Positions 1,063 through 60,122 of a stretch of 60,122 nucleotides of DNA are shown here, piece by piece. The translations under genes and the position numbers were made by a program. The notes beneath the pieces are model-generated. The model was not told the DNA's origin. It saw only the letters and a list, made by a program, of their open reading frames with translations, and made no database searches. The stretch is from a virus. Its lineage: Duplodnaviria; Caudoviricetes. Positions within the stretch are counted from its first letter, which is position 1. The number at the start of each line of letters is the position of its first letter. The stretch lies in the IMG/VR virus record IMGVR_UViG_3300030098_003345, positions 1 through 60,122 of that record. One strand, written 5' to 3'.

Positions 1063-2166
1063 ATGTGTATAATTATTATCAAACAAAAAAACCAAGTAAT
1101 GCCACGAGAGGTGGCAAAAAATTCAGCCCGAATAAATCCTCACGGATTGGGTATAGTATGGCTCGATACATTCGAAGTCACATATCACAAGTCAAGTGAC
1201 TACAAGGTCATTATAACCGACAGACCATTCATTGCTCATTTTAGATATGCCACGATTGGCGAAATCAGCAAAGCGAACACGCATCCATTTGTATGCGGTA
1301 AGAATAAGGATGAACTACTAATGATGAACGGAACTATCAATGGATACGGAAATTTCAAAATGACCGATACTGAGGATTTAGCAATCCAACTTGGTTCAAC
1401 TCCGAGACACTCGTGGAAGCAACAACTTGCTTCATTTGATGCACGATTTGTTTCGGTCAATCTACGTCACAGGTCTTTCCAAATTTACAACAGACATTTA
1501 TATACCTACAAAGATGGGATTTGGTATTCTAAATCCAATGTACTCCAAGACAATGTGATTGCGGTCTATGGTACCTTGAAAAAGGGATTTGGAAACTACT
1601 ATGGATTCCTCACGAATGCCAAGCATATTGGCAAAGGCAAAACTCAAGACCAATATCCATTGGTTGTAAACGGATTGCCCTACCTATTAGACAAGAAAGG
1701 TAAAGGCAACAATGTGGTGGTAGATGTGTTCAAGGTATCGGACAAGCAACTTGCACAAATAGACCGATTGGAGTCACATCCACATTGGTATATCCGTAAG
1801 CAAATTCCGGTAGTGGTAAATGGGAAATCCATCTTATGTTGGACATACTTTAACCAAGATGGAGAGAACTATTGGAACGGACACAATCACGTAGAATCCT
1901 ATGAGCATCAACCCAAGTGGAGACCATCTACGTTTTCTTTCCCCAAGTTAGAAGAAGTAGAGACAGAGGTGGACACTCACGATTGCACTCAAATAGATTT
2001 GTTTGAGGATGATATTGAGGAAGAATTTAAGTCAACGCTTGAATCTCCTATATGCAAAGATACTGAATGCAATAATGATTTGGTGTTTGATGGGTTTAAT
2101 CAATTCTATTGTAGTGGATGCAACAGGTGGTATGCCGAAAACGATGTACTATCAATGGGGTGTTAA
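1063..2166 (+). CDS. Class II (Ntn) glutamine amidotransferase fused to a gamma-glutamylcyclotransferase (AIG2-like) domain and a C-terminal Zn ribbon
   Basis: Start at 1063 gives the N-terminal Met-Cys; NPHGLG, HFRYAT, NTHPF and NG motifs; AVYGTLKKG and IDRLE GGCT motifs; CxxxxC..CxxC at the C-terminus. Confidence 0.85.
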   Translation: MCIIIIKQKNQVMPREVAKNSARINPHGLGIVWLDTFEVTYHKSSDYKVIITDRPFIAHFRYATIGEISKANTHPFVCGKNKDELLMMNGTINGYGNFKMTDTEDLAIQLGSTPRHSWKQQLASFDARFVSVNLRHRSFQIYNRHLYTYKDGIWYSKSNVLQDNVIAVYGTLKKGFGNYYGFLTNAKHIGKGKTQDQYPLVVNGLPYLLDKKGKGNNVVVDVFKVSDKQLAQIDRLESHPHWYIRKQIPVVVNGKSILCWTYFNQDGENYWNGHNHVESYEHQPKWRPSTFSFPKLEEVETEVDTHDCTQIDLFEDDIEEEFKSTLESPICKDTECNNDLVFDGFNQFYCSGCNRWYAENDVLSMGC

Positions 2167-2175
2167 ACCGCAGTA

Positions 2176-2204
2176 AGGGTTTGTGTCTTCAAAGACACAA
2201 CCCT
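2176..2204 (+). repeat. 16-bp palindrome (2183-2198) inside an extended hairpin directly before hammerhead 1
   Basis: AGGGTTTGTGTCT-TCAA-AGACACAACCCT. Confidence 0.9.
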
Positions 2205-2254
2205 CTGTCTATCGGTGTGTGCCGATACTGATGAAGCCAAAAGGCAGAAACAGA
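2204..2254 (+). ncRNA. Type III hammerhead ribozyme, copy 1 (predicted cut after C2209)
   Basis: TCTG-TC | stem I TATCGG-TGTGTG-CCGATA | CTGATGA | A-GCC-AAAA-GGC-A | GAAA | CAGA. Confidence 0.85.
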
Positions 2255-2273: not shown

Positions 2274-2426
2274 ATGAAAGCAAAAGTATATTTAACCAAA
2301 GAGGAACTAAGAGCTATTTCATCTAAGATTATTAATTCCACAAGTGATGAAATCCTTGATGATAATACTAAAGTAATAACCCAAGCTTGGGGGAAAATCT
2401 TTAACGCAATAAAAGAGCTAAGTTAA
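2274..2426 (+). CDS. Small hypothetical protein (50 aa)
   Basis: Hand translation MKAKVYLTKEELRAISSKII...IKELS; fills the gap after the ribozyme. Confidence 0.6.
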   Translation: MKAKVYLTKEELRAISSKIINSTSDEILDDNTKVITQAWGKIFNAIKELS

Positions 2427-14538: not shown

Positions 14539-14968
14539 AACAAATAAAGATTTAGCGAGAGAAAGGAGAGCTATTGAAAAGTTTGTTAGCCGATTTAAAG
14601 GGAGTTTCAAAAAGCTTTCTCCCAATGATGTAGATTACAGGGTGTATGATTCCAAAGGAAAACTAATTGCTTATGTTGAGGTTAAAGGAAGGTTCCGCAC
14701 TATTGCAGAGGCTTATCCTCTCCCTGTAGCAGCACGAAAGGTTGTAAAGTTGTGTGACAAAAGATTAAACCCTGTTCTTATTTGGTCTTGTGAGGATGGA
14801 ATAATATATGGCAAACCCACGCATCTAAAGGGTATCCTAAAGTGGGGAGGAAGAAAACCACGAGAGGGAGCCGTTAACGATGAAGAGTTAATGATTTATT
14901 ATGACAAGCAAGACGAGTTCAAATACCACAAATACTACGATAGTGTCTTTGAAGACACCAATCTATAG
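14528..14968 (+). CDS. PD-(D/E)XK nuclease-like protein
   Basis: VDY...YVEVKGR motif. Confidence 0.6.
   Translation: MRFETNKDLARERRAIEKFVSRFKGSFKKLSPNDVDYRVYDSKGKLIAYVEVKGRFRTIAEAYPLPVAARKVVKLCDKRLNPVLIWSCEDGIIYGKPTHLKGILKWGGRKPREGAVNDEELMIYYDKQDEFKYHKYYDSVFEDTNL
14943..14958 (-). repeat. 16-bp palindrome at the convergence of the two arms
   Basis: GTGTCTTTGAAGACAC (CA-centred on the minus strand). Confidence 0.95.
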
Positions 14969-14993: not shown

Positions 14994-17900
14994 CTAATCC
15001 GCAAGTTTATCTAACATATCTTGGACTTCCTTCTTACTCGGCTTATCTTCGGTAGATTTAGATTTTTTCTTTTTGTTAGTAGGTCGGTAAGAGTAGGAGA
15101 CCCCCAATAAATCATACATTGCATCTTCATCCATACCATCGGTAAATATTTCCGCAAGCCCTACGAGAGGGTCTGCTTGTACACCTACACCAATCTCTGT
15201 TAGAACTTGTGCTGCCTTTAATATTTTATCAGCATCATCATACTTAACTCCGTTGTGCCATTTTTTATAGATACTTCTTACAGGGTTAGTTGGTTGAACT
15301 ACTGTCTTTCTATCCTCATCTACCCAATCTGCCCAAGCCTGTTCTGCCGTTTCGCCAAAAAAAGGTATCTGATAAATAAGGTTAAGACCAAACATTGCAT
15401 CTCTCATACGAGCAAACGCTTCTGCTCTATCTTTAGGGTCATCACTTGTAATCTTAAATATATTAGCAGCACCGGTGAACAATACGTTGGCAACGGCGGC
15501 ATTTAAGTAAAGTGAACGTATATCTTCAAGCTTAATTTTAGAAGGGTCTTTAGTTTTAATTGCCTCCTGAGTTTGCCTTCCAAGATTGGTTGTTGCCTGC
15601 ATAACCTTGTTCATTTGTAAGAACAAGGTACTACCAAACATAGTAAATGCCCTTGTAAAAGCGTGAGGATTCATTTGTAAAGGAATTTTTTCAGTAGCTC
15701 TACGAGTTTGCTGAGTAGCATTGTAATCATTAAACTCTTGCAAAGCTTGAGCTTTACTCATTCCATTTTTAATATTACGTCTGTAGTTTACCATATACCC
15801 CATAACACCCATAATATCTCCAATGATAGTTGGGGAAGCAGCTATCCTTCTTCCTCTCCTTCCAAGCTTTGCCCACATAGCTTGGTTAGTTTCAAAATCC
15901 TTGAATGTAGGTTGCCCTGATTCTAATCCCATCAAGTCTCCTTTAACACCAAGCTCTATCCTTTTTCTAAAAATAGCCGACATATTCATAGCCTCAGAAA
16001 GCGGTCTACTTTCTAATCCAATATGTTTACCTGATACCTTCTCTGCTCCCAAAACTGCAATCTCAGCTAAAAGATTAGCAGCTAACATTGCGGTATCCAT
16101 CATAAACATCACAATATCTACCCCTGCGGTTGCCTTACCTTTTCTATAACGATACTTTTCTAAAGCGTTAATAAATGAGGTAGCCTGCTTAGGTATCTGC
16201 ATCAGCTTCAATGCTAAAGCAAAAGATGTATAACGACTCTGTAGCCAATTTAGCGCTTTCGTAAGTTTACTTGGGTGCTTAGTAAAAGCGTCAGGATTAA
16301 TGGCATAGTTAATAGCATTTCTTACAACCGATGTTAATGACATTGACTCCATTAGACTTTTAGTGTAAGGGTTATCAAATATCCCTTGAATAATCTTTGT
16401 AGGCATAGCGTAAGCCTTATACCTTTCCATAGTTTTAATGTGAGTTTCTAATGTAGCAGCAAAGTCTACATCTAACTCCACCCCGCTTTTTATATTCGAC
16501 CTTACCTTCAATGATGGTGCCGACTCTGCATTAAATATTTTACTAAAATCTCCGGTAGACAAAATGTTTTCAGTTTCCTCTGTCTGAAGCGTCTTTGTTG
16601 GGAAATAGTTTTCTATATATCCAAGATTCACATCATTAACCTGCCTATAAACATCGTTAACCTCATTGTAATATTCATTACTTAAGAAGTTGACTATCTT
16701 GTCGGAAACACTTACGAGTTGTGGACCAAGAAAAGCTTCTACCTCCTCCATAACCTGTGGTGTAAATCCTTGCTTTTCTAATTTGTCACGCTGCAAATCG
16801 TTTTTATAGAGAGAGTAGATACGCAACAGTTGGTCAACACTTCCATTCCATTCCTCAGCAGTCTTTCCTATCGTACCATCCTTATTGATTTTCCTAACCA
16901 TCACCGGCATAGTTCCTGACGTATAAAGAAGCTCCCTGACTTGTTCCATCCCCCTATCTATACCTTCGATACTATTGACTATCTCATCTAACTTATTTTG
17001 AGTTCTGAAATACCCTTCCATATTAGCCTCATCAGCTCGGTTTAATCTGTTATAGATGTTCTCGGTAAAGAAATTACCTGAAATATCCATCTTGTTCATT
17101 AAGGTACCCATATGCTGAAGACTGTGTTTAAAACCTGCTATAAACTCAGAAAAGGTAGTCCACTTGTAATGTTTTATATATTCCATTATCCACTTAGAAT
17201 ACTTCTTATCGTGGTATAGCTTATGTATCTTGTCCCGTTCCATTATTAATTGGTTACGGTCTTTAGGTGTGCCATCCTTATCTAAAATAGCATCACCAAA
17301 ATCTTTAGTCATCTGAGCCTCGCCCTCTCTGTTGATGGCTTTTATCTGCTCGGCTCTTGCTTTTCTACGACTCTTGTATCGTCTTATACCCTCAGCATTG
17401 ACATCTTTTAAAGATGATAACAACAGTTGAGTATCTTCAAGACTCATATTTTCTAAGTCACTAAAGTTATCAAAGGCATAAGACAGGTTGAGTAACCTTT
17501 CCTCAGCTCTTGTTAGCTTTTCGTTTTGGTTCTCTTTTAGAATTGCTTCATTAATTAGAGATTCGTTCTCTGTTAATTCATCCAAGATTGCAAGCATTGC
17601 ATCGGTATCCCCCTTTATTACATTCTGTAGCACCTTATTGGCTGATTGCATAAAAGCCTGTGTCTCTGCAGCTATCCCTTTACTTTTCTTTTTCTTAGAT
17701 TCAGAAATCCTTACTTTAGATTTTTCTTGAACCAATTTTTTTATTTCCTTAACTACATCGTTCTTTATCCTCTTTCTAACAAGCTTTATTTCCTTCTCTA
17801 TCTTTCTCATATCATTAAGGATACTTGCATCTGTAGCCTTTGCAATGATATTGTTCAGCCTATTGACTGTACCTGTAGTTATATTCTCTGTCTTAGGAAG

Positions 17901-20900
17901 AGCTTTGCGAATCATTTCACGCACCGCTAACTTAACGCTTTGTAAGTTATCAGAAGCCTCCTTACGGGTCTTTATCCTTTGTTTAATGGCATCTATCTCT
18001 CTTTGTACAGAAACATTAGCACGAGTATCTATCGTCTTATCTAAGGCTATAATAAGGGAGTCTTGAGTCTGCTTAGGTTGAGCCTCAAATATTGGTTCAG
18101 CCTTTAAAATTTCAATAGCCTTTAGTCTTATTTGAGATTTAGTTTTTGGGGGATTTGTGATTGTTGTAGCTACACCAACTCGTGGATACCTGTTAAGAAT
18201 CTCTTGGTCGGTCAACGCAAACAATGTCGGGTTAGCCTCACGTAGTTGAGTGGCACGTTCAGCCTTTTGCTCTGCAGTCTCTCTTTGATACGTTGTAGTG
18301 CGTGTAGGTTTAGTATATGCCTTTAATTTTTTTCGTACATTATCAAACAACACCTTTCCTTCACTCATCCCGCCCTCTACATTACCAAACTCCGGTATAA
18401 CGGCTACGTCATTAAATAATGTGTTATCAAGATTAACTACTAAGGCTTCGTTTATTTGAGCTTTCTTAAATCCTTCCTCCTTTAATACTATTCTAATTGC
18501 CGCATCACTATATCCTTGCTCTCTTGCGGAAGAAACAATAGTGGTTGCTGACATATCATTAATACTATTTCCTGTCATCAACTGCAGTCCGCTTTTAATC
18601 TCTTGTGCTTGAGCTTCGGCAAATACCTGCTCTCCTGACAGTAAATCCACTACCACACCTTGCAAAAACTCATCAAGCGTTAAATTTTGAACCTCTTCAT
18701 CACTCATTTTTGATAGACCAACTAAAGATTTAACAAAATTGTATAGCTTGTTAAGCCAATTTTTAAAGTCAGCTTTTATAGAGGCATCAGCAAATGATTG
18801 TCCTTTATCTCCAATTGCGGTGGCAAGAGCTTCTTCTAAAATAAATTCTCTTATCTCTGCTTCTGTCGCACCATCTTCCTTCATACTCTTGATAACCCTC
18901 TTATACTCAGGACTATTTTCAATTTGTGAGATGTAGGTATCGTCAGTTTCTATAAGCTCTATCCCTTTCTGATATAACTTGGGGTTAAATTCTTTAGCAA
19001 CGGAGTTCCATATGTGACCAAATTCGTGAATAGGTGTGTTAGTATTTGCAGCTTTAGGATTTAGGTAAAGCTTACCCTTGTATACGGCTCCATACACCTT
19101 ATTTTCATCACGTTGTGCTTTTGTCGTAACCGCCACCACATCAGGTTGAATTAATAAATTATCAAACTGTTTTTGGTTTGTTATCACTTCTATATTAGGG
19201 AATGATTTACTAAGTAGATTTACAAAATTATCATAAGACCTTGCTGTTATAGGAGAAACCGTCTGCGCTTGTGAGGCACTAACAGAGGCTTTATACATTG
19301 TATCGGACATAGCCTCAGCCGCAGTAAATGGTCGTGTGGATGCAGGAGTAATAACCTTGCCTGTTTTTTTATCTCTCTTTTCAGCTACTTTCTTTTTTAT
19401 TACCTTTCCAAACTTAGCTTCAATCGTATCCTTAAAGCCTTTTATCACATTCCAAAACGGAGTAGTCTCTTGTAATAAAGCGACAGGCTTACCCCTTAGA
19501 TAAAAATCATAGCTTGGGTGACTTGGTATGCCTTCTTGTTTTTGTTGTTCAGGACTAACTATAGCATCATCAATTGTCTTTTCAGTTACCTTGTTACCTT
19601 CACTATCCTGAATCTCTAAGACCATAGTCATTGTACCCGCAGGTAAGTCTTTTACAAAGTCTTCTGTTAAAGGTTCTCTAAGGCTTTCTATAGAGATGCC
19701 CTTAGATTCTAAGGTCTTCCCTACATCGGTTTTGGAAGCCTTACCCTCCACCGGTATTATATTCTTAAATACCTTAGCTTTTGTTCTAAGATTTAAAACG
19801 TCTATATTTTCCAACAATTCCGTTACGTTTGTGGATTTAGCAACTATATCGGCAACTTTTTGGGTATCATCAAAATCTTTTTCACGGAAGACCTTCCCAT
19901 CTAATTGAGCTACTATTTGGTCGAATATAAGTTTCTGAGTATCGGTATCTAACTTAGACAATTCATTTAAGAACTGTGTCCTTATAGCTACATTGGAACT
20001 GATAGCATCAGGGTTCATATTATATACCACCGTATAGTCAGATTTGACTGCTCCCTTTGCAATCTTGCGTACTGCATTTTCATCAACATTTGCCCACGCA
20101 ATATTATGCTTACGCATTCCTTCTTGCAACGAAAAGAATGGACCACCCATAAACTCTTCATTAGTTACAAGTTGGTCTGCCATTATAAGATTAATCTTTT
20201 TCCCAATCAGTTCACTTAGACCCATACGTTTCAGGTCTTTAGCAAGGGATGTGTTCTCATCTATAACGATAGGAATTGTTTCCACATTAACCTCTTCTAC
20301 GGTGTATGAGTTTTCTGCCATACTCTCCTGCTGAAGCTCCATCAATCTCGTTGCCTCTTCAGTCAGCTTCTCTTGTCTCTGCTCGTTAGTTATACCTGCA
20401 GCTAATTGGAATTTTGGATTTTCTTTTTTAATAAAAGCTTCTAAGTCTTTTACCTCTTGTTCTAAATTTTGTTTTCCTTCTACTTGCGTTTTAATCTCTT
20501 CACTTGGAGTTATAATAGCGTCAATCTCCACCTGCATTCCATCCCCAAACATTTCTGCATATCCCGGAGCATTGGCAATAATGTTTTGAGCATCTTTTTT
20601 TGTTGACACAATTGGACCAACTTGGTTTGTAACTTTATTAACAACTACCCATTTACCATTTTCTGCTGCAGGACCAAATGTGCTACCATCTCTGTTGTCA
20701 ATTATCTCAAAGTCTTTAGACCAAATCTTTTTATCGGTCTTATTCATTGTATAAGTAACCATCTCATCTTCAATCTTCTCAGTAGGAGCTACCTCTATGT
20801 TAGCCGACAAAACCTTTACTGCATCTTCTTTAGACTCTACATTTGACTCTATGATTTCTTCTCCTTGTCTTACCGAAAACCTACCATCAGGCTGAGTGAT

Positions 20901-23900
20901 AATCTGACCTTTAACCTCGTTAGTTGTCTCGCCTATTACATCCTCAACTATCGCACCCTCTTCTACTTGTATCTCTGTGGTAGTAGGTTTAGTTGAAATA
21001 GTTAACGCTTCTGAGACTTCAGTTGTCGTAGTGGTCGGAGATTCTTGGGTTTCTTCCGAAACCTCCCGTACAGTCTCTTCCACCGCTTGTATATCTCCGG
21101 TTTGTTTATCTTGAGAAACTGTTCCTGCTTTTCGCTTTGAAATGGCATCTTTTTTATTTATTAATAGTTTTTGTACTTCAGGGTCATATAATACCGCCGT
21201 AGACCTATGGAGTATTTGGTTTAAATTTTTAGCTTTGTTAATGTTTTTAATAAATTGGTCACGAGTCACCTGTTTTCCTCGCCACATATATTTACCGGTT
21301 TTACCTCTTTCAGTCTTACCTAAAATTAAGTCCAAGTTTACTTGATTTGCTACACCTTCATTTAGTAGCTTTCTATATTCTTTAGTGGTAAGCTCACCCT
21401 CATCCAACATCTTCTTATATTGAGTCCGTTGTTTTACACTTAATCCTTGCACATTTCCTGTTTCTGCTATCTGTGCTATCTCAGCATTTATCTCTTTTAT
21501 CTTTTCTTTAAATACAAGTTTTGTATTTTGTGTTTGGCTTAATTTATTACGAGCTTCAATAAGCCTACCTAATCTTGTCTTAACATCTTTTTGTGTAGTG
21601 ACTTTGGTTCCTCTTACGGCTAAAGAACTAATCGGTCCCCCTGTCACAGATACAAGTTCATTAACCTCTCTCCTTATACCAATATTTTCTCTAATCTTTT
21701 GTGCTTGGTCTGCATCTATCTTTCCAAGCTTGAGCATATTGTCGGTCCACGTATTTATCCGGGTATCACCTGTAGACTCATTCATTATAAAGCTCATATC
21801 GTTGGCAAGCTTATCTGCAAGCCCTACATTGCTTCTATTCCTTTGGTCGATATAAACATTAATTGCCGCATTAGATATGTTATTACCTCCTGCACCGCCT
21901 GCCTCAGCTCCAATGTCTTTCCAATCAAGCTCATCTCCTACACTTGCTTGTGCCAATCCTTCACCCAATGCTTCCATAGCCGGGTCAAAGACTGCACGTT
22001 CTGCTGCAAATAGACCTAATGCTTGAGAACGAGTAGCAAAAGTTCCGGCTTTAAAAACCCTACCGGCAAGACCTGCTGACATAAAATCTACTGCTCCAAT
22101 TACAAGACCTCTCTTAACACCCCTATCATTGGCTTCCTCCCATACAGACGGCTCCATCAACCCTTCAGCAACCTCGTCAGGATTAAGTGTATTAAAATTG
22201 TGATTTTCTAAAGCCTCAATAACGGCATTAGAATATTCCATTGCAAAACTTGTTGCTCCAAATCCGGTCCTTATACCCCAAACCATTCCGGTCCCCGCAC
22301 CACTTATTGCACCGGGAATTGCACCCACTCCACCGGCAGGTGCTCCGGTTGCTGCTCCAATACTTCCTCCAAGAGTGGCACCTTGTGCTGCGGCAGTAGG
22401 TATAAGCCACATCCCATAGGGCAACATTTGACTTATAGAGTTAGCCGCTAAACCAACCATCCATTCTGCAGGGTCCCTTAAGAAGTTATTCCATCCCTCT
22501 TTCCCACTCACCTGCCCAAAGTATCGTGCATTTACCCGTGATGTTTTACCGGATTGCTCCGATAGATGTTGAGCAATTTTTTCGGAGGCTAATTTTCTAT
22601 CTTCAGGGTCTTCAATGTCTACAATGCCTGCAGCCATTAAGACTATTTGCTCCATAGCATTACCACGAGCTAACCCATCATTCCAAGCCGTTGCTATGCT
22701 TTCCCAATCATCTACATAGGCATCTTGAATGTTTTTATTTTCTTTCTTAGAAAAATAAGTCTGAGCAATATCAAACTTAAGTGCTGCTAAATTTTCAGTA
22801 GCAGCCACAGTATTTAATTGGCTAATGTATATATCTTTTAGTTTAGTTTCATATCCGTCTTTAGGAATGTAATTAACAATATCCTTTGCTCTTATACCAA
22901 GATTATTTATAACATCAGCATCTATCTTCATATAATCAATCTGTGCTTGTCTATTTATCTCAGCCGCTTTACCTGCAGCTTGTCGTTGTTTTTTCGCTAA
23001 ATATCCATCAAAGTCTTCTCTTGCCCTTGCTATTTCTTGGTCATCTATATAGATTTCAAATAACCTATCTTCTGTTTCCTCTATCTCTTTTATTCTTTCT
23101 CCGGCATCAGACCGTAACACACCATTGACATAGAATTTACCATAAAGTTCTTTCTCTTCTTCTGTTAGATTGGATTCTAATCTGTCTCGGGGGTCACCCT
23201 CTAATACTTCTTCAAGGAATAATCTTTCATCCCGTGCCTGTTCGTACATTTCAAACCCTTCTCGTGCTACATTATAATCAAGACCTCTCTCTGAGTAAAA
23301 GCGTTCTGCCTCCAAATCTACGGTGCTTACATCTTTCCACCCTCCCTCTGCAAAATCCTGTGCCTTTTCTTGAGAATCAAAAGAAAACACTTCGCCTCTT
23401 TTCTTGGCTTCCGTAATCGCATCTTCAAAAGACAATACCTCCCAATCTATAGGTTTAGAAGTTACATTATCAGGGTCTTTTGGGAATAGGGTTGGTGCTA
23501 CATAATGTTTACCATCTTCCTCATAAGACATAAATTTTACAGTAGATTGTGAGCCATCAGGATTTACTAACGCTACAGGTCTTATAGTCTTAGCTCTTAA
23601 GGCATTATCTAATATAGTTTCTTCCGCCTCATCTAACTCTCTACCTACAGGAACTGCATTATCTCTTACAAAGTTTTTCAGTTTCTCGGCATATCTCTCA
23701 TCTAAATATGCGGTAAAGTTATCAAGCTCAATAACCTCTTTTGCATTGGTATAGATATTTCTTATTACTGCCCTATCGAACCCTAAAAAACCATAATCCT
23801 CCACTACAAAACCGTATTTTCCTAAAGTAGAGTTGAGGACAGAAACAACATCCTGAGATTGTCCTGACATTAAATCGGAGTTTATAATATCTAAGGACTT

Positions 23901-24614
23901 ATTAAAGTCTTCATCTCCTGCAAGTCCTGCACGTTCAGTATTCTCCTTAATCGTTTCTTCTGCTTGTCTCTTAGCTTCTTGTTCAATTAATAACGCTTGT
24001 GCCGCCTTTGTTTCTTCAGCTTCCTCAAGTTCTGTGGCAAGTTTATTTTCGGCTGCTATCTTTTCTTGGGTTTCTTTTTGTTGTTGCACATAAAGCTGAC
24101 CCGCTTTACTTTCTTTCCACTTATTTCTGTATTCCGTTACTTCATCAAGTGCAGCTTGAGTGCTGAGTGGACTCTCCGATGCAAGACTCGTATAGTCAGG
24201 ATTAAATCCTATGGCTTCATAAAAATCTTTTTCTGAAATAGGAGTATCGGAATTAAGGATATCACTCTCCCTATCTTCTCTTGATACCGACCCAATATCT
24301 TCCGATATTGAATCCCCAACTTGCTGCTCTTGTGGAGTCTGAATTGGATTTTTTTTTTCAAACTGAACAGACACCTCCTCCCATTGATTGCCAAACCGTT
24401 CTTGAAGTTCGTTCTCTGTAAACTCTTTTCCGTTAGGAGCAATATATGTAGATTCAGATATTTCTTCAGTAGATACTTCTTGGATTGGCTCTGTGGATTC
24501 TACAAACTGACCTGAAGCCACAAGCGTGCCAAAGTCTTCTCCAAATCGTTGACGTAAATATGATTCTGTTAGAACTTTACCGTTTGGGGTTTTGTAGTGT
24601 TTTTCTTCTCCCAT
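14994..24614 (-). CDS. Giant internal virion/ejection protein (polyvalent-protein type) with zincin metallopeptidase motif
   Basis: 3206 aa; TPIHEFGHIW plus downstream EEALA; Gly/Ala-rich hydrophobic stretch; last gene of the virion operon. Confidence 0.7.
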   Translation of the reverse strand: MGEEKHYKTPNGKVLTESYLRQRFGEDFGTLVASGQFVESTEPIQEVSTEEISESTYIAPNGKEFTENELQERFGNQWEEVSVQFEKKNPIQTPQEQQVGDSISEDIGSVSREDRESDILNSDTPISEKDFYEAIGFNPDYTSLASESPLSTQAALDEVTEYRNKWKESKAGQLYVQQQKETQEKIAAENKLATELEEAEETKAAQALLIEQEAKRQAEETIKENTERAGLAGDEDFNKSLDIINSDLMSGQSQDVVSVLNSTLGKYGFVVEDYGFLGFDRAVIRNIYTNAKEVIELDNFTAYLDERYAEKLKNFVRDNAVPVGRELDEAEETILDNALRAKTIRPVALVNPDGSQSTVKFMSYEEDGKHYVAPTLFPKDPDNVTSKPIDWEVLSFEDAITEAKKRGEVFSFDSQEKAQDFAEGGWKDVSTVDLEAERFYSERGLDYNVAREGFEMYEQARDERLFLEEVLEGDPRDRLESNLTEEEKELYGKFYVNGVLRSDAGERIKEIEETEDRLFEIYIDDQEIARAREDFDGYLAKKQRQAAGKAAEINRQAQIDYMKIDADVINNLGIRAKDIVNYIPKDGYETKLKDIYISQLNTVAATENLAALKFDIAQTYFSKKENKNIQDAYVDDWESIATAWNDGLARGNAMEQIVLMAAGIVDIEDPEDRKLASEKIAQHLSEQSGKTSRVNARYFGQVSGKEGWNNFLRDPAEWMVGLAANSISQMLPYGMWLIPTAAAQGATLGGSIGAATGAPAGGVGAIPGAISGAGTGMVWGIRTGFGATSFAMEYSNAVIEALENHNFNTLNPDEVAEGLMEPSVWEEANDRGVKRGLVIGAVDFMSAGLAGRVFKAGTFATRSQALGLFAAERAVFDPAMEALGEGLAQASVGDELDWKDIGAEAGGAGGNNISNAAINVYIDQRNRSNVGLADKLANDMSFIMNESTGDTRINTWTDNMLKLGKIDADQAQKIRENIGIRREVNELVSVTGGPISSLAVRGTKVTTQKDVKTRLGRLIEARNKLSQTQNTKLVFKEKIKEINAEIAQIAETGNVQGLSVKQRTQYKKMLDEGELTTKEYRKLLNEGVANQVNLDLILGKTERGKTGKYMWRGKQVTRDQFIKNINKAKNLNQILHRSTAVLYDPEVQKLLINKKDAISKRKAGTVSQDKQTGDIQAVEETVREVSEETQESPTTTTTEVSEALTISTKPTTTEIQVEEGAIVEDVIGETTNEVKGQIITQPDGRFSVRQGEEIIESNVESKEDAVKVLSANIEVAPTEKIEDEMVTYTMNKTDKKIWSKDFEIIDNRDGSTFGPAAENGKWVVVNKVTNQVGPIVSTKKDAQNIIANAPGYAEMFGDGMQVEIDAIITPSEEIKTQVEGKQNLEQEVKDLEAFIKKENPKFQLAAGITNEQRQEKLTEEATRLMELQQESMAENSYTVEEVNVETIPIVIDENTSLAKDLKRMGLSELIGKKINLIMADQLVTNEEFMGGPFFSLQEGMRKHNIAWANVDENAVRKIAKGAVKSDYTVVYNMNPDAISSNVAIRTQFLNELSKLDTDTQKLIFDQIVAQLDGKVFREKDFDDTQKVADIVAKSTNVTELLENIDVLNLRTKAKVFKNIIPVEGKASKTDVGKTLESKGISIESLREPLTEDFVKDLPAGTMTMVLEIQDSEGNKVTEKTIDDAIVSPEQQKQEGIPSHPSYDFYLRGKPVALLQETTPFWNVIKGFKDTIEAKFGKVIKKKVAEKRDKKTGKVITPASTRPFTAAEAMSDTMYKASVSASQAQTVSPITARSYDNFVNLLSKSFPNIEVITNQKQFDNLLIQPDVVAVTTKAQRDENKVYGAVYKGKLYLNPKAANTNTPIHEFGHIWNSVAKEFNPKLYQKGIELIETDDTYISQIENSPEYKRVIKSMKEDGATEAEIREFILEEALATAIGDKGQSFADASIKADFKNWLNKLYNFVKSLVGLSKMSDEEVQNLTLDEFLQGVVVDLLSGEQVFAEAQAQEIKSGLQLMTGNSINDMSATTIVSSAREQGYSDAAIRIVLKEEGFKKAQINEALVVNLDNTLFNDVAVIPEFGNVEGGMSEGKVLFDNVRKKLKAYTKPTRTTTYQRETAEQKAERATQLREANPTLFALTDQEILNRYPRVGVATTITNPPKTKSQIRLKAIEILKAEPIFEAQPKQTQDSLIIALDKTIDTRANVSVQREIDAIKQRIKTRKEASDNLQSVKLAVREMIRKALPKTENITTGTVNRLNNIIAKATDASILNDMRKIEKEIKLVRKRIKNDVVKEIKKLVQEKSKVRISESKKKKSKGIAAETQAFMQSANKVLQNVIKGDTDAMLAILDELTENESLINEAILKENQNEKLTRAEERLLNLSYAFDNFSDLENMSLEDTQLLLSSLKDVNAEGIRRYKSRRKARAEQIKAINREGEAQMTKDFGDAILDKDGTPKDRNQLIMERDKIHKLYHDKKYSKWIMEYIKHYKWTTFSEFIAGFKHSLQHMGTLMNKMDISGNFFTENIYNRLNRADEANMEGYFRTQNKLDEIVNSIEGIDRGMEQVRELLYTSGTMPVMVRKINKDGTIGKTAEEWNGSVDQLLRIYSLYKNDLQRDKLEKQGFTPQVMEEVEAFLGPQLVSVSDKIVNFLSNEYYNEVNDVYRQVNDVNLGYIENYFPTKTLQTEETENILSTGDFSKIFNAESAPSLKVRSNIKSGVELDVDFAATLETHIKTMERYKAYAMPTKIIQGIFDNPYTKSLMESMSLTSVVRNAINYAINPDAFTKHPSKLTKALNWLQSRYTSFALALKLMQIPKQATSFINALEKYRYRKGKATAGVDIVMFMMDTAMLAANLLAEIAVLGAEKVSGKHIGLESRPLSEAMNMSAIFRKRIELGVKGDLMGLESGQPTFKDFETNQAMWAKLGRRGRRIAASPTIIGDIMGVMGYMVNYRRNIKNGMSKAQALQEFNDYNATQQTRRATEKIPLQMNPHAFTRAFTMFGSTLFLQMNKVMQATTNLGRQTQEAIKTKDPSKIKLEDIRSLYLNAAVANVLFTGAANIFKITSDDPKDRAEAFARMRDAMFGLNLIYQIPFFGETAEQAWADWVDEDRKTVVQPTNPVRSIYKKWHNGVKYDDADKILKAAQVLTEIGVGVQADPLVGLAEIFTDGMDEDAMYDLLGVSYSYRPTNKKKKSKSTEDKPSKKEVQDMLDKLAD

Positions 24615-58731: not shown

Positions 58732-59817
58732 ATGAGAAATTTAAACAACACAGGGCACAAATTCGAGTGTATCGGAGATACCGATATAAGAGGTGAAATT
58801 GTTGGCTATGGTAGCAAAGCCGAAGCCATAAAAATCAACAAAGCACTCCCTTTAGATTTCAACGGAATCCGGATGCAAGACAGGAAGAACGTCTTGTTTG
58901 ATGGGGTTGAAGCTACGTCAAAATTCACTATCGGCTTTGAAGTAGAGAAAAACACATTTCATAGGGGATGCGTTAAAGAATACCCATTGTTCTGTGGATT
59001 CGAACGGGATGGTTCTTGCGGATTTGAAGCGGTTACTCACGTTCTACCTTTGTTAGGGAAATCATATTGGAGAACGAAAGTTTTCAATATGTTCCACGAA
59101 GCACAGAGAGTAATTGAAGATAGCTACTCCCCATCTGATGTGTCTTGCGGTGGACACATTACCGTAGGTGTAGAGGGGATGGATGGAGCTGATTTGATGG
59201 AAAGAATGCGAAAATTTGTTCCTATCCTGTATGCCATCTTTCGTAAGAGGTTAGCTAATACCTTTTGCTATGGCAATCCACAGATGGTAGATACAAGAGG
59301 TGGTGTAGGAATCAATATTAATGTAGGCAAATACTCTGTAGCTCTCAATAAGCACTTTGGTGTAGAAATTCGCTTACCATCAAGAGTAACGTCTGTTAAG
59401 CAGATGATTCGCCGATATGAGCTAATGTATCATATCGTTGATTTTGCGGTCAATCATCCGAATGCTACTTACAACAGGTTCATACGAACAATTGAACCAA
59501 TCTTACTTTCAATGTACAATCAGGATGCAGACAAAGTTACGCAGTTAGTTGAATTGTCGAAGCATTTCCGCAAGTTTATCTTTACGGGTAAAGTAGATAT
59601 TAATACTATAGGATGGGTAAATGGATGGTGGAGAAGTAATTTTCCTTATAGCGGTAGTAACTACATTCCAAGCGAGAATTACCAACGCAGTTTGGTATCT
59701 CTCATTCAACAGAATGGTGGTGTTTCTGATGTAAGAGATTTATGGTACAACAATGTGTTATCCTCACGTCTTGACAATTCAGTTTACAATCCAATTGGCG
59801 GTATCAGTAATTTCTGA
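58732..59817 (+). CDS. Putative amidoligase (COOH-NH2 ligase, glutamine synthetase/GCS-like fold)
   Basis: FTIGFEVE, ERDGS..FEAVT, SCGGHIT, KYSVAL, VEIR motifs. Confidence 0.75.
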   Translation: MRNLNNTGHKFECIGDTDIRGEIVGYGSKAEAIKINKALPLDFNGIRMQDRKNVLFDGVEATSKFTIGFEVEKNTFHRGCVKEYPLFCGFERDGSCGFEAVTHVLPLLGKSYWRTKVFNMFHEAQRVIEDSYSPSDVSCGGHITVGVEGMDGADLMERMRKFVPILYAIFRKRLANTFCYGNPQMVDTRGGVGININVGKYSVALNKHFGVEIRLPSRVTSVKQMIRRYELMYHIVDFAVNHPNATYNRFIRTIEPILLSMYNQDADKVTQLVELSKHFRKFIFTGKVDINTIGWVNGWWRSNFPYSGSNYIPSENYQRSLVSLIQQNGGVSDVRDLWYNNVLSSRLDNSVYNPIGGISNF

Positions 59818-59824
59818 CTCAGTA

Positions 59825-59854
59825 AGGGGTGGTGTCTTCAAAGACACTACTCCT
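59825..59854 (+). repeat. 16-bp palindrome (59832-59847) inside an extended hairpin directly before hammerhead 2
   Basis: AGGGGTGGTGTCT-TCAA-AGACACTACTCCT; 13 pairs including two G.U. Confidence 0.9.
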
Positions 59855-59902
59855 CTGTCGATAGGTGTGTGCCTATCCTGATGAAGCGAAAGCAGAAACA
59901 GA
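59854..59902 (+). ncRNA. Type III hammerhead ribozyme, copy 2 (predicted cut after C59859)
   Basis: TCTG-TC | GATAGG-TGTGTG-CCTATC | CTGATGA | A-GC-GAAA-GC-A | GAAA | CAGA. Confidence 0.85.
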
Positions 59903-59922
59903 AATCTTTAAACCATAACAAA

Positions 59923-60122
59923 ATGAAGACATTAAACACTATTCAAAACGCAACCCTAACACTTATAGCACTATTTGTGCTCACATCAATTATTAGGGTA
60001 TTGGTTCACATCGTACAAACGCATCCATTTCAACTCTCCAATATTATTTCATTTGGAGTGCTTAGTTTGATAGTATATGTGATGTGTGCAATCCTACTCG
60101 GTTTATGGAAAGAATCCTTTCG
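59923..60122 (+). CDS. Small two-TM membrane protein spanning the origin (68 aa, stop at nt 105-107 on the circle)
   Basis: Hand translation MKTLNTIQNATLTLIALFVLTSIIRVLVHIVQTHPFQLSNIISFGVLSLIVYVMCAILLGLWKESFRG; A-rich leader; missing from the ORF track because it wraps. Confidence 0.7.
   Translation, partial: MKTLNTIQNATLTLIALFVLTSIIRVLVHIVQTHPFQLSNIISFGVLSLIVYVMCAILLGLWKESF
60023..60122. repeat. Terminal direct repeat (copy 2)
   Basis: Matches nt 1-100 with one mismatch. Confidence 0.95.

What the first reader, a model, noticed from the sequence alone, without database searches (positions are those of the whole stretch)
2171..2254. Hammerhead ribozyme 1: one of a covarying pair with a non-canonical A.A at the base of stem II
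Seen: directly after the GATase/GGCT stop lies a complete type III hammerhead with a GUC cleavage triplet, CUGAUGA and GAAA core. Compared with the copy at 59854-59902, core, loop I (UGUGUG) and stem III are identical. Stem I changes compensatorily (UAUCGG/CCGAUA vs GAUAGG/CCUAUC), and stem II changes from GCC-AAAA-GGC to GC-GAAA-GC. Established: a UG-rich loop I docking on a purine tetraloop II is typical of natural type III hammerheads such as sTRSV, and position 10.1-11.1 is normally G-C. Both copies here have A.A at that position instead. Inference: these are active variant ribozymes that process phage early mRNA.
Basis: partly seen in the sequence, partly recalled or inferred. Interest (0 to 1): 0.9.

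Follow-up and report, generated by a model that had tools for sequence, protein, structure and literature searches.

The report
Phage hammerhead ribozymes with A·A variant
Two small self-cutting RNA motifs (hammerhead ribozymes) sit between genes of a 60-kb phage; they belong to a large, known kind of phage ribozyme but carry an unusual, recurrent A·A mismatch where a G-C pair is normally found.

Summary
Both sites (2204-2254 and 59854-59902, + strand) have the complete type III hammerhead layout, with a GUC cleavage triplet, the CUGAUGA and GAAA cores, and A·A at 10.1/11.1.

Rfam does not call them at its gathering score. Canonical G-C relatives in related phages also fail that threshold.

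Pattern scans and a covariance model found the same design in many viral contigs. Among 38 distinct A·A hammerheads, stem I is paired in 100% of cells and all 6 stem I pairs covary. Stems II and III also covary.

In a survey of 175 unique family members, position 10.1/11.1 is G-C (64), U·U (54) or A·A (24), and never A-U, U-A or C-G. At the same gene slot, related phages use A·A, U·U or G-C.

The ribozyme is part of a regular module: stop codon, strong hairpin, hammerhead, about 22 nt, next ATG.

The most likely function is self-cleavage of a polycistronic early mRNA. Cleavage itself is untested, because no RNA run was listed.

Phage hammerheads and the U·U variant are in print. I found no paper naming the A·A variant.

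The scan has met this Rfam-missed family before on other DNA, in CPR bacteria and phages.

The parts
1063..2166 (+). Upstream gene of hammerhead 1: a GATase-like plus GGACT (gamma-glutamyl cyclotransferase-like) protein. Its stop codon TAA lies at 2164-2166.
   Evidence: Pfam PF06094 GGACT scores 75 bits; GATase_4 and GATase_6 are weak. PHROG 2520 is gamma-glutamyl cyclotransferase. Homologues at 44-74% aa identity occur in 21 related viral loci.
2177..2203 (+). Strong hairpin containing the genome-wide GUGUCUUCAAAGACAC palindrome. It ends directly at stem III of hammerhead 1.
   Evidence: Fold. The palindrome family appears. An abutting hairpin of -9 kcal/mol or stronger is present at 48 of 58 family hammerheads, against 66 of 2000 random 41-nt windows.
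2204..2254 (+). Hammerhead ribozyme 1 (type III). The predicted cut lies between C2209 and U2210. A10.1 is at 2235 and A11.1 at 2246. Stem II is GCC-AAAA-GGC.
   Evidence: A near-identical copy occurs in L182, and the same stem II in L052, L002, L005, L013 and L036.
2274..2426 (+). Next ORF (50 aa). Its ATG lies 19 nt after the hammerhead.
   Evidence: An ATG 10-30 nt downstream occurs at 45 of 58 family hammerheads, against 154 of 2000 random positions.
58732..59817 (+). Upstream gene of hammerhead 2 (361 aa from the ATG at 58732). It has no Pfam or PHROG match here.
   Evidence: Homologues at 34-65% aa identity occur in 24 related loci, usually next to a hammerhead.
59826..59853 (+). Hairpin with the same palindrome, including two G·U pairs, so the full stem forms only in + strand RNA. 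It abuts hammerhead 2.
59854..59902 (+). Hammerhead ribozyme 2 (type III). The predicted cut lies between C59859 and G59860. A10.1 is at 59885 and A11.1 at 59894. Stem II is GC-GAAA-GC.
   Evidence: The sequence is identical to the hammerhead in L019.
59914..60122 (+). Next ORF (71 aa, running across the circular junction). Its ATG lies 11 nt after hammerhead 2.
   Evidence: Homologues follow the hammerhead in L052 and L108.

Best explanation
Both elements are functional self-cleaving type III hammerhead ribozymes. They belong to a large phage-borne family with a 6-bp stem I, a UGUGUR loop I, a short stem II and an RAAA loop II. In these two, the usual G10.1-C11.1 pair is replaced by an A·A mismatch that stacks on the A9·G12 pair.

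They are transcribed as part of a polycistronic + strand mRNA. Each cuts 6 nt after a strong hairpin and 11-19 nt before the next start codon region.

The cut leaves the upstream cistron with a hairpin-protected 3' end carrying a 2',3'-cyclic phosphate. The downstream cistron is left with a 5'-OH and a structured 5' end. The stability and translation of neighbouring cistrons are thereby uncoupled.

Shown: the motif, its conservation and covariation, the module layout, and the interchange of A·A, U·U and G-C at the same gene slot.

Inferred: catalysis, co-transcription and the effect on mRNA fate.
For: (1) Both copies have the complete core, the NUH site and three helices.

(2) Relatives of the A·A form.
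- A viral-contig scan with the stem II/core pattern of the window copies returned 52 loci. In 41 of them, the unconstrained upstream sequence supplies CUGUH, a perfectly paired 6-bp stem I and a UGUGUR-like loop. The other 11 do not.
- A second A·A scan that left stem II free returned 12 new loci. Ten are hammerheads with GUC/GAC or GC/GC stems II and varied stems III; 2 are not.

(3) Covariation in 38 distinct A·A hammerheads.
- 12 of 16 pairs change on both sides.
- Stem I is paired in 100% of cells, with 6 of 6 pairs covarying.
- Pair 35-42 is CG in 31 and UA in 7.
- The covariation score is 0.588, against 0.170 in shuffles (0 of 500 reach it) and at most 0.106 when the partners are slid.
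- The first set of 24 gave 95.6% of cells paired, against 74.9% in shuffles.

(4) Synteny. In 28 related loci sharing the GGACT gene or the 361-aa ORF, the model finds 56 hammerheads, 1-5 per locus.
- Directly after the GGACT gene: A·A in the window, L052, L019, L031 and L150; G-C in L002 and L036; U·U in L074, L083, L103 and L138.
- After the 361-aa ORF: A·A in the window, L002, L005, L013, L020 and L022; G-C or an extra U plus G-C in about 20 others.

(5) A natural U10.1·U11.1 hammerhead is reported in PMC3088659 (section 8), which cites earlier mutational work for its retaining cleavage activity. The same paper reports active stems II of 1-2 bp.

(6) Module regularity across the 56 related hammerheads plus the 2 in the window.
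- 49 of 58 have a stop codon 10-40 nt upstream.
- 48 of 58 have an abutting strong hairpin (control 66 of 2000).
- 45 of 58 have an ATG 10-30 nt downstream (control 154 of 2000).

(7) No sigma-70-like promoter or U-tract terminator excess lies near either site. This is consistent with read-through transcription.
Against: - No cleavage data exist, and no RNA run was listed.
- Rfam's curated threshold is not reached (31.8 against 48.5 bits for copy 1; no hit for copy 2). Canonical G-C siblings also fail it: 33.4-41.7 bits, or no hit.
- Per PMC3088659 section 8, earlier mutagenesis found U·U to be the best-tolerated mismatch at 10.1/11.1. That implies A·A was worse in a minimal ribozyme; I did not see that primary paper.
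- Core invariance in my A·A set is partly by construction, because the scan patterns fixed the core letters.
- In its 91-nt context, the minimum-free-energy fold of copy 2 pairs CAG 59820-59822 with CUG 59855-59857. That competes with stem III.
- The sequences in the covariation counts are related, so shuffle controls overstate significance.
Confidence: 0.68

Rival explanations
1. The A·A hammerheads are deliberately weakened or conditional ribozymes. Replacing G10.1, a ligand of the A9/G10.1 metal site, slows cleavage or changes its ion dependence. Only a fraction of transcripts is then cut, which sets a fixed ratio of joined to separated cistrons.
For: - PMC7151607 (passages) states that metal ions bind the A9 phosphate, a nitrogen of G10.1 and G12. 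It also shows that a natural phage core variant (A6C, Bcep176) cleaves poorly with Mg2+ but well with Mn2+.
- PMC3088659 section 8 implies that mismatches other than U·U reduce activity.
- A·A and canonical hammerheads coexist in one phage: L007, L008, L012, L027, L039, L050 and L052, and L002, L019, L031 and L036. This fits different settings at different junctions.
Against: - There are no kinetic data.
- A·A, U·U and G-C swap at the same gene slot among relatives. That fits near-neutral interchange as well as tuning.
- A10.1 keeps a purine N7 (established chemistry, not tested here).
Confidence: 0.2
2. They are inactive relics, or structured RNAs kept for a role other than cleavage, such as protein binding or a 5'-UTR structure.
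For: - A non-canonical 10.1/11.1 pair.
- Only 2 Watson-Crick pairs in stem II of copy 2.
- A sub-threshold Rfam score, or none.
Against: - All three stems covary while the loops and the cleavage-site context are kept, across 38 distinct sequences from many contigs.
- The same variant recurs with four different stems II (GC, GCC, GUC, GCU).
- It also occurs in MAG contigs labelled as CPR bacteria (5 of 68 genome-contig pattern hits).
- Stems II of 1-2 bp are active in tested natural hammerheads (PMC3088659).
Confidence: 0.08
3. The two same-strand hammerheads excise the 2,372-nt RNA between the cuts (four small ORFs plus the GGACT gene). A ligase then circularises it; this is another of the first reader's notes.
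For: - The two cut sites lie 2,372 nt apart on the 60,022-bp circle.
- Hammerhead products have ends that an RtcB-type ligase accepts (established knowledge).
Against: - Relatives carry from 1 to 5 hammerheads at varying junctions, so a defined excised unit is not conserved.
- No ligase gene was looked for or seen.
- There are no RNA data.
Confidence: 0.03

Closest known systems
Hammerhead ribozymes of bacteriophages and prophages, including natural U10.1·U11.1 variants (Perreault et al. 2011, PMC3088659; review PMC6155905)
   Same: - Intergenic position in phage DNA.
- Several copies flanking small ORFs.
- A consensus core.
- A very short stem II.
- A homo-mismatch replacing G10.1-C11.1.
- In the loci held here, U·U is common in the same family (54 of 175 unique hammerheads).
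   Different: - The mismatch here is A·A. The section I read names only U·U, and searches for A10.1, A11.1 and 'A-A mismatch' with 'hammerhead' found nothing relevant.
- Their supplementary alignments could not be opened and may contain A·A examples.
- Here A·A goes with GUC or GUU sites and never with A17, whereas U·U goes mostly with GUA or AUA.
Rfam RF00008 Hammerhead_3 (type III hammerheads of viroids and plant satellite RNAs; clan CL00010)
   Same: - Type III topology.
- Full-length alignment of copy 1 to the model, positions 1-54.
- CUGUC ... CUGAUGA ... GAAAC framework.
- A UGUG-type loop I and a purine-rich loop II. The similarity to sTRSV is recalled, not tested.
   Different: - Scores fall below the gathering threshold: 31.8 bits for copy 1 and none for copy 2.
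- Canonical phage siblings also fall below it (33.4-41.7 bits).
- The element lies in a DNA phage mRNA, not in a rolling-circle RNA replicon.
- A·A replaces G-C at 10.1/11.1.
Hammerheads with an extra unpaired nucleotide between A9 and G10.1 (for example the CChMVd extra A; recalled from De la Pena and Flores 2001, not read here)
   Same: The same family here contains forms with an extra U (25 unique) or an extra A (4 unique) before a normal G-C pair. The junction between A9 and stem II therefore tolerates additions.
   Different: - In the window copies an A is present on both strands.
- The 12-nt stem II unit AGCC-AAAA-GGCA has the same length as canonical GUUC-AAAA-GAAC. The As therefore occupy 10.1 and 11.1 rather than being insertions.
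RNase III processing sites between phage T7 early genes; synthetic ribozyme insulators such as RiboJ (functional analogues; recalled)
   Same: Cutting of a polycistronic phage mRNA between cistrons, leaving a hairpin at the 3' end of the upstream piece and a defined 5' end on the downstream piece.
   Different: Cleavage here would be by the RNA itself, with no host enzyme. The end chemistry differs (2',3'-cyclic phosphate and 5'-OH).

Membership tests
Hammerhead ribozyme, type III | Conserved core C3 U4 G5 A6 N7 G8 A9 and G12 A13 A14 | tested here: met
   CUGAUGA lies at 2228-2234 and 59878-59884. GAA lies at 2247-2249 and 59895-59897.
Hammerhead ribozyme, type III | A15.1-U16.1 pair and an NUH cleavage triplet | tested here: met
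   GUC lies at 2207-2209 and 59857-59859. U2208 pairs with A2250, and U59858 with A59898.
Hammerhead ribozyme, type III | Three helices around the core, with stems I and II closed by loops and stem III open | tested here: met
   The minimum-free-energy folds give this junction. Stems I, II and III covary in 38 distinct relatives.
Hammerhead ribozyme, type III | G10.1-C11.1 closing pair of stem II (quasi-conserved) | tested here: not met
   Both copies have A·A (2235/2246 and 59885/59894). A natural U·U exception is accepted in PMC3088659, so this feature is not strictly defining.
Hammerhead ribozyme, type III | Rfam RF00008 gathering score (48.5 bits) | tested here: not met
   Copy 1 scores 31.8 bits and copy 2 has no hit. 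Canonical siblings score 33.4-41.7 bits or have no hit, so the threshold misses the whole phage family.
Hammerhead ribozyme, type III | Site-specific, divalent-ion-assisted self-cleavage giving 2',3'-cyclic phosphate and 5'-OH ends | not testable with these tools
   No RNA run was listed. A bench assay is needed.
Hammerhead ribozyme, type III | Loop I-loop II tertiary contact of extended hammerheads | tested here: inconclusive
   The loops are conserved. In loop I, U14 is invariant and G15, U16, G17 and U18 are kept in at least 90% of sequences. In loop II, A39 and A40 are invariant. Part of this was fixed by the scan patterns, and no 3-D test was possible.

The most novel reading that the evidence does not exclude
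A10.1·A11.1 is a third natural, selected way to close stem II of the hammerhead, beside G-C and U·U. Watson-Crick alternatives are absent: 0 of 175 unique family members have A-U, U-A or C-G.

The choice appears coupled to the cleavage-site nucleotide. A·A goes with C17 or U17, and U·U goes with A17.

The variant would re-tune the A9/10.1 metal site and the cleavage kinetics.

The hairpin-plus-hammerhead cassette would be a modular, movable intercistronic insulator. A family of about 60-kb phages would place it at chosen junctions of an early operon built around a GGACT/GATase gene and a conserved 361-aa ORF.
Probability: 0.3. Interest if true: 0.6.

Novelty: new variant of a known kind. Interest (0 to 1): 0.45.

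Why it matters
The biological role of bacterial and phage hammerheads is still described as largely unknown (review PMC6765202, section 13 passages).

This phage group offers an unusually regular comparative system. Each early operon carries 1-5 ribozymes, always in the layout stop codon, hairpin, ribozyme, about 22 nt, start codon. The junction that carries one differs between relatives. That pattern makes the mRNA-uncoupling hypothesis testable with reporter constructs.

For ribozyme chemistry, the survey shows which replacements of the 'most conserved' stem pair nature actually uses: G-C, U·U and A·A only. A·A sits next to the general-base G12 and the A9/10.1 metal site, so it is a natural experiment on that site.

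In practice, Rfam's Hammerhead_3 threshold misses this whole family, canonical members included. Annotation pipelines will therefore overlook it.

Tried and rejected
- Rfam at gathering on the whole window gave no match. Rfam at gathering on 12 related loci gave only two tRNAs. I rejected this as evidence against the motif, because canonical siblings are also sub-threshold.

- blastn of 8 kb and of the 116-nt element against GenBank phages gave no match. The tool may leave out the window's own record.

- tblastn of the GGACT protein against GenBank phages gave 5 weak or partial records. The best, MW202828.1, has a 36-nt gap after its GGCT gene and no hammerhead by the model.

- Duplication of a gene-plus-ribozyme cassette is rejected. 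The two upstream proteins are unrelated (BLASTP E 0.11).

- Sequencing runs: no RNA holder was listed.

- Genome-contig scan with the A·A pattern: 63 of 68 hits are not hammerheads, being mostly coding coincidences.

- In viral scan 1, 11 of 52 loci lack the type III layout. In the scan that left stem II free, 9 of the 13 unparsed new-locus matches are not hammerheads. In scan 3, 2 of 12 new loci are not hammerheads.

- A possible type I hammerhead reading of L003, L014 and L024 got no Rfam support in L024 at E<=1.

- The sigma-70 promoter and U-tract terminator scans were no better than shuffles.

- Literature searches for 'hammerhead' with A10.1, A11.1, 'A-A mismatch' plus 'stem II', or amidoligase found nothing relevant. 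The first search, using 10.1 and 11.1, was swamped by DOIs. Supplementary files of PMC3088659 were not opened and may list A·A variants.

- The metagenome-contig scan, protein structure tools and complex prediction were not used, because they do not bear on the question.

Full report
**What is there**

The window is a 60,022-bp circular or terminally redundant phage genome; bases 1-98 repeat at 60023-60120. It encodes a portal protein, virion proteins, a GroEL-like chaperonin and a primase-helicase.

Each has:
- a stem III 5' strand UCUGU
- C17, giving a GUC triplet
- a 6-bp stem I, UAUCGG/CCGAUA in one copy and GAUAGG/CCUAUC in the other
- loop I UGUGUG
- CUGAUGA
- an A
- a short stem II, GCC-AAAA-GGC in one copy and GC-GAAA-GC in the other
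- a second A
- GAAA and the stem III 3' strand CAGA

The predicted cuts fall at 2209/2210 and 59859/59860.

The combination CTGATGA-N4-30-GAAAC occurs only at these two places. Shuffles average 0.18, and 1 of 100 has 2 or more. Both cores fold into the three-way junction by minimum free energy.

**Rfam**

No family reaches its gathering score in the window.
- In a local search, copy 1 aligns end to end with Hammerhead_3 at 31.8 bits. The threshold is 48.5, and the E-value is 2.5e-5.
- Copy 2 gives no hammerhead hit at E<=10.

This is not due to the A·A.
- In 12 related loci holding many canonical G-C hammerheads, nothing but two tRNAs passes gathering.
- In a sensitive search of five small loci, three canonical siblings score 33.4, 36.4 and 41.7 bits. 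One canonical sibling (L075) and two A·A siblings (L150, L009) are not reported at all.

The curated threshold therefore misses the whole phage family.

**Relatives**

Scan 1 searched viral contigs with the stem II/core pattern of the window copies and returned 52 loci.
- In 41 of them, the sequence upstream of the pattern supplies CUGUC or CUGUU, a perfectly complementary 6-bp stem I and a UGUGUR-type loop. The pattern did not constrain that sequence.
- The other 11 do not show this.

Scan 2 fixed only CUGUC, UGUGU and CUGAUGA.

Scan 3 fixed A at 10.1 and 11.1 but left stem II free. It returned 50 loci, 12 of them new.
- Ten of the new loci are hammerheads with A-GUC-RAAA-GAC-A or A-GC-AAAA-GC-A.
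- Their stems III vary: CUGU/ACAG, CCGU/ACGG, UUGU/ACAA, ACGU/ACGU.
- The other 2 new loci are chance hits.

In cellular genome contigs the first pattern hit 68 places. Only 5 are hammerheads: four in MAG contigs labelled as CPR bacteria, and one in a MAG labelled Aliivibrio. The last differs from window copy 1 only at position 17.

**Covariation**

On 24 distinct A·A hammerheads:
- 95.6% of cells pair, against 74.9% in shuffles (0 of 500 reach it).
- All 6 stem I pairs change on both sides with no unpaired cell.

On 38 distinct sequences:
- 12 of 16 pairs change on both sides.
- Stem I is 100% paired.
- Stem II pair 35-42 is CG in 31 and UA in 7.
- Stem III pairs 3-51 and 4-50 covary.
- The covariation score is 0.588. 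Shuffles give 0.170 (0 of 500 reach it), and slid partners give at most 0.106.

Two caveats apply. The sequences are related, so the shuffle control overstates significance. The core letters, and A·A itself, were fixed by the scan patterns, so their invariance is not evidence. The stem complementarity and the upstream half of the motif were never part of scans 1 and 3.

**What nature puts at 10.1/11.1**

I ran a simple hammerhead scanner of my own over viral loci L001-L152 plus the window. It found 264 hammerheads, 175 of them unique.

| Class at 10.1/11.1 | Unique hammerheads |
|---|---|
| G-C | 64 |
| U·U | 54 |
| extra 5' U, then G-C | 25 |
| A·A | 24 |
| extra 5' A, then G-C | 4 |
| G·U types | 3 |
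| C·U | 1 |
| A-U, U-A or C-G | 0 |

The sample is biased by how the loci were fetched.
- Scan 1 enriches for A·A.
- In the scan that left stem II free, 100 new loci gave 104 matches: 55 G-C, 28 U plus G-C, 4 U..U by end letters, 3 A plus G-C, 1 A·A and 13 unparsed.
- 16 loci already fetched in scan 1 were also re-hit by that scan.

A·A is thus a minority variant, but it recurs with at least four stem II contexts (GC, GCC, GUC, GCU).

The 12-nt unit AGCC-AAAA-GGCA has the same length as canonical GUUC-AAAA-GAAC and as U·U UUCC-AAAA-GGAU. The As therefore occupy 10.1 and 11.1 rather than being insertions.

**Gene context**

tblastn with the window's flanking proteins shows that many of these loci come from related phages, with contigs often 56-62 kb long. 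They share the GATase-like/GGACT protein (44-74% identity, 21 loci) and the 361-aa ORF (34-65%, 24 loci).

The covariance model finds 56 hammerheads in 28 such loci, 1 to 5 per locus. The closest relative, L052 (74% identity), has the same order as the window: 361-aa ORF, hammerhead, small ORF, GGACT gene, hammerhead.

Directly after the GGACT gene the hammerhead is:
- A·A in the window, L052, L019, L031 and L150
- G-C in L002 and L036
- U·U in L074, L083, L103 and L138
- not detected there in several others

After the 361-aa ORF it is:
- A·A in the window, L002, L005, L013, L020 and L022
- G-C or extra-U forms in about 20 loci

Some phages instead, or also, carry one before that ORF: L036, L054, L074, L104, L108, L115 and L127. 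The two window upstream proteins are unrelated to each other, so the pair is not a duplicated gene cassette.

**The module**

Counts cover the 58 hammerheads: 56 in the related loci plus the 2 in the window.

| Feature | Hammerheads | Control |
|---|---|---|
| Stop of an open frame of at least 60 codons, 10-40 nt upstream (median 31.5) | 49 of 58 | no control run |
| Hairpin of -9 kcal/mol or stronger ending within 2 nt of the ribozyme (median -14.75 kcal/mol) | 48 of 58 | 66 of 2000 random windows (median -4.1) |
| ATG opening at least 40 codons, 10-30 nt downstream (median 22) | 45 of 58 | 154 of 2000 random positions |

In the window this hairpin is the 16-nt palindrome. It recurs many times, oriented with transcription.
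- Only two of its copies are followed by a hammerhead.
- The hairpin before copy 2 uses two G·U pairs, so it is an RNA-level structure.
- No U-tract terminator or promoter excess lies nearby.

**Mechanism (inferred)**

The + strand arm is read as polycistronic RNA. Each hammerhead folds once transcribed and cuts 6 nt after the hairpin.

The upstream fragment ends in a stable hairpin plus UCUGUC with a cyclic phosphate. The downstream fragment begins with a 5'-OH at the base of stem I, 11-19 nt before its start-codon region. This would uncouple the decay and translation of neighbouring cistrons.

The 2019 review gives the same idea as a suggestion for bacterial hammerheads, and calls their roles largely elusive (PMC6765202, passages).

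For copy 2, an alternative pairing of CAG 59820-59822 with CUG 59855-59857 competes with stem III in the 91-nt fold. It might delay cleavage.

**What is known**

- Phage and prophage hammerheads that flank small ORFs, stems II of one or two pairs, and a natural U10.1·U11.1 mismatch are described in PMC3088659 (passages; section 8 read in full).
- PMC6155905 covers related ground (passages).
- PMC7151607 (passages) places a metal site at the A9 phosphate and G10.1. It also shows that a natural phage core variant shifts ion preference.
- I found no paper naming an A·A at 10.1/11.1, nor one linking hammerheads to these genes. Subscription papers and supplements were not searchable, so this is not proof of absence.
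- Earlier reports of this scan on other genomes had already met this Rfam-missed type III family in CPR bacteria and phages, including the idea of a protective adjoining hairpin. My CPR MAG hits and the hairpin statistics agree with them.

**Verdict**

- These are real ribozyme motifs, and membership in the hammerhead class is well supported.
- Activity is likely but untested.
- The kind is known. The A·A closing pair and its pattern of use are a modest new variant, and the regular module is a useful handle on function.

Noticed in passing
viral loci L001-L152: The identity of 10.1/11.1 appears coupled to the cleavage-site nucleotide. A·A hammerheads have GUC (18) or GUU (6) and never A17. U·U hammerheads have an xUA triplet in 49 of 54 unique cases. 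The sampling is biased and the sequences are related, so this needs a proper test.
   Followed up: partly
L081, L116, L133, L140: These hammerheads of the same family carry an insert of about 30 nt between CUGAUGA and stem II. The insert looks like two extra small hairpins, the first being CCAC-GAAA-GUGG. This is the same junction where other members have one extra U or A.
   Followed up: no
L003, L014, L024: The A·A stem II/core pattern also occurs in what reads by eye as a type I arrangement. Stem I would be open, with a 2-bp stem III closed by AGAAAU and followed by GUC. Rfam gave no hammerhead hit in L024 at E<=1, so this is unconfirmed.
   Followed up: partly
window, many sites, e.g. 1027, 3244, 4509, 7089, 8030, 11119, 58696; reverse-oriented copies at 14943, 24628, 28757: A 16-nt palindrome GUGUCUUCAAAGACAC recurs in intergenic positions, oriented with the genes. 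Related phages have compensated versions, with a GUGUCC...GGACAC or GUGAGGG...CCCUCAC core. Only two window copies carry a hammerhead, whereas some relatives have one after most early hairpins.
   Followed up: partly
window 59820-59857: CAG of the conserved CAGUAAGGG left flank can pair with CUG of stem III of hammerhead 2. This extends the upstream hairpin and gives a non-ribozyme minimum-free-energy fold in the 91-nt context. Copy 1 has the same flank but folds as a hammerhead.
   Followed up: no
It is nevertheless conserved next to the GGACT gene in 24 related loci.
   Followed up: partly
window 14994-24614 (- strand): A 3,206-aa ORF has no PHROG match at E<=0.001.
   Followed up: no
L055 1475-1548, L108 8337-8410: tRNA genes lie upstream of the hammerhead-punctuated module in two related phage contigs.
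   Followed up: no
L182 1177-1229 (- strand): A 35-kb contig binned as an Aliivibrio MAG carries a hammerhead identical to window copy 1 except for U in place of C at position 17. It is probably a related phage contig. This is not evidence of the host.
   Followed up: no
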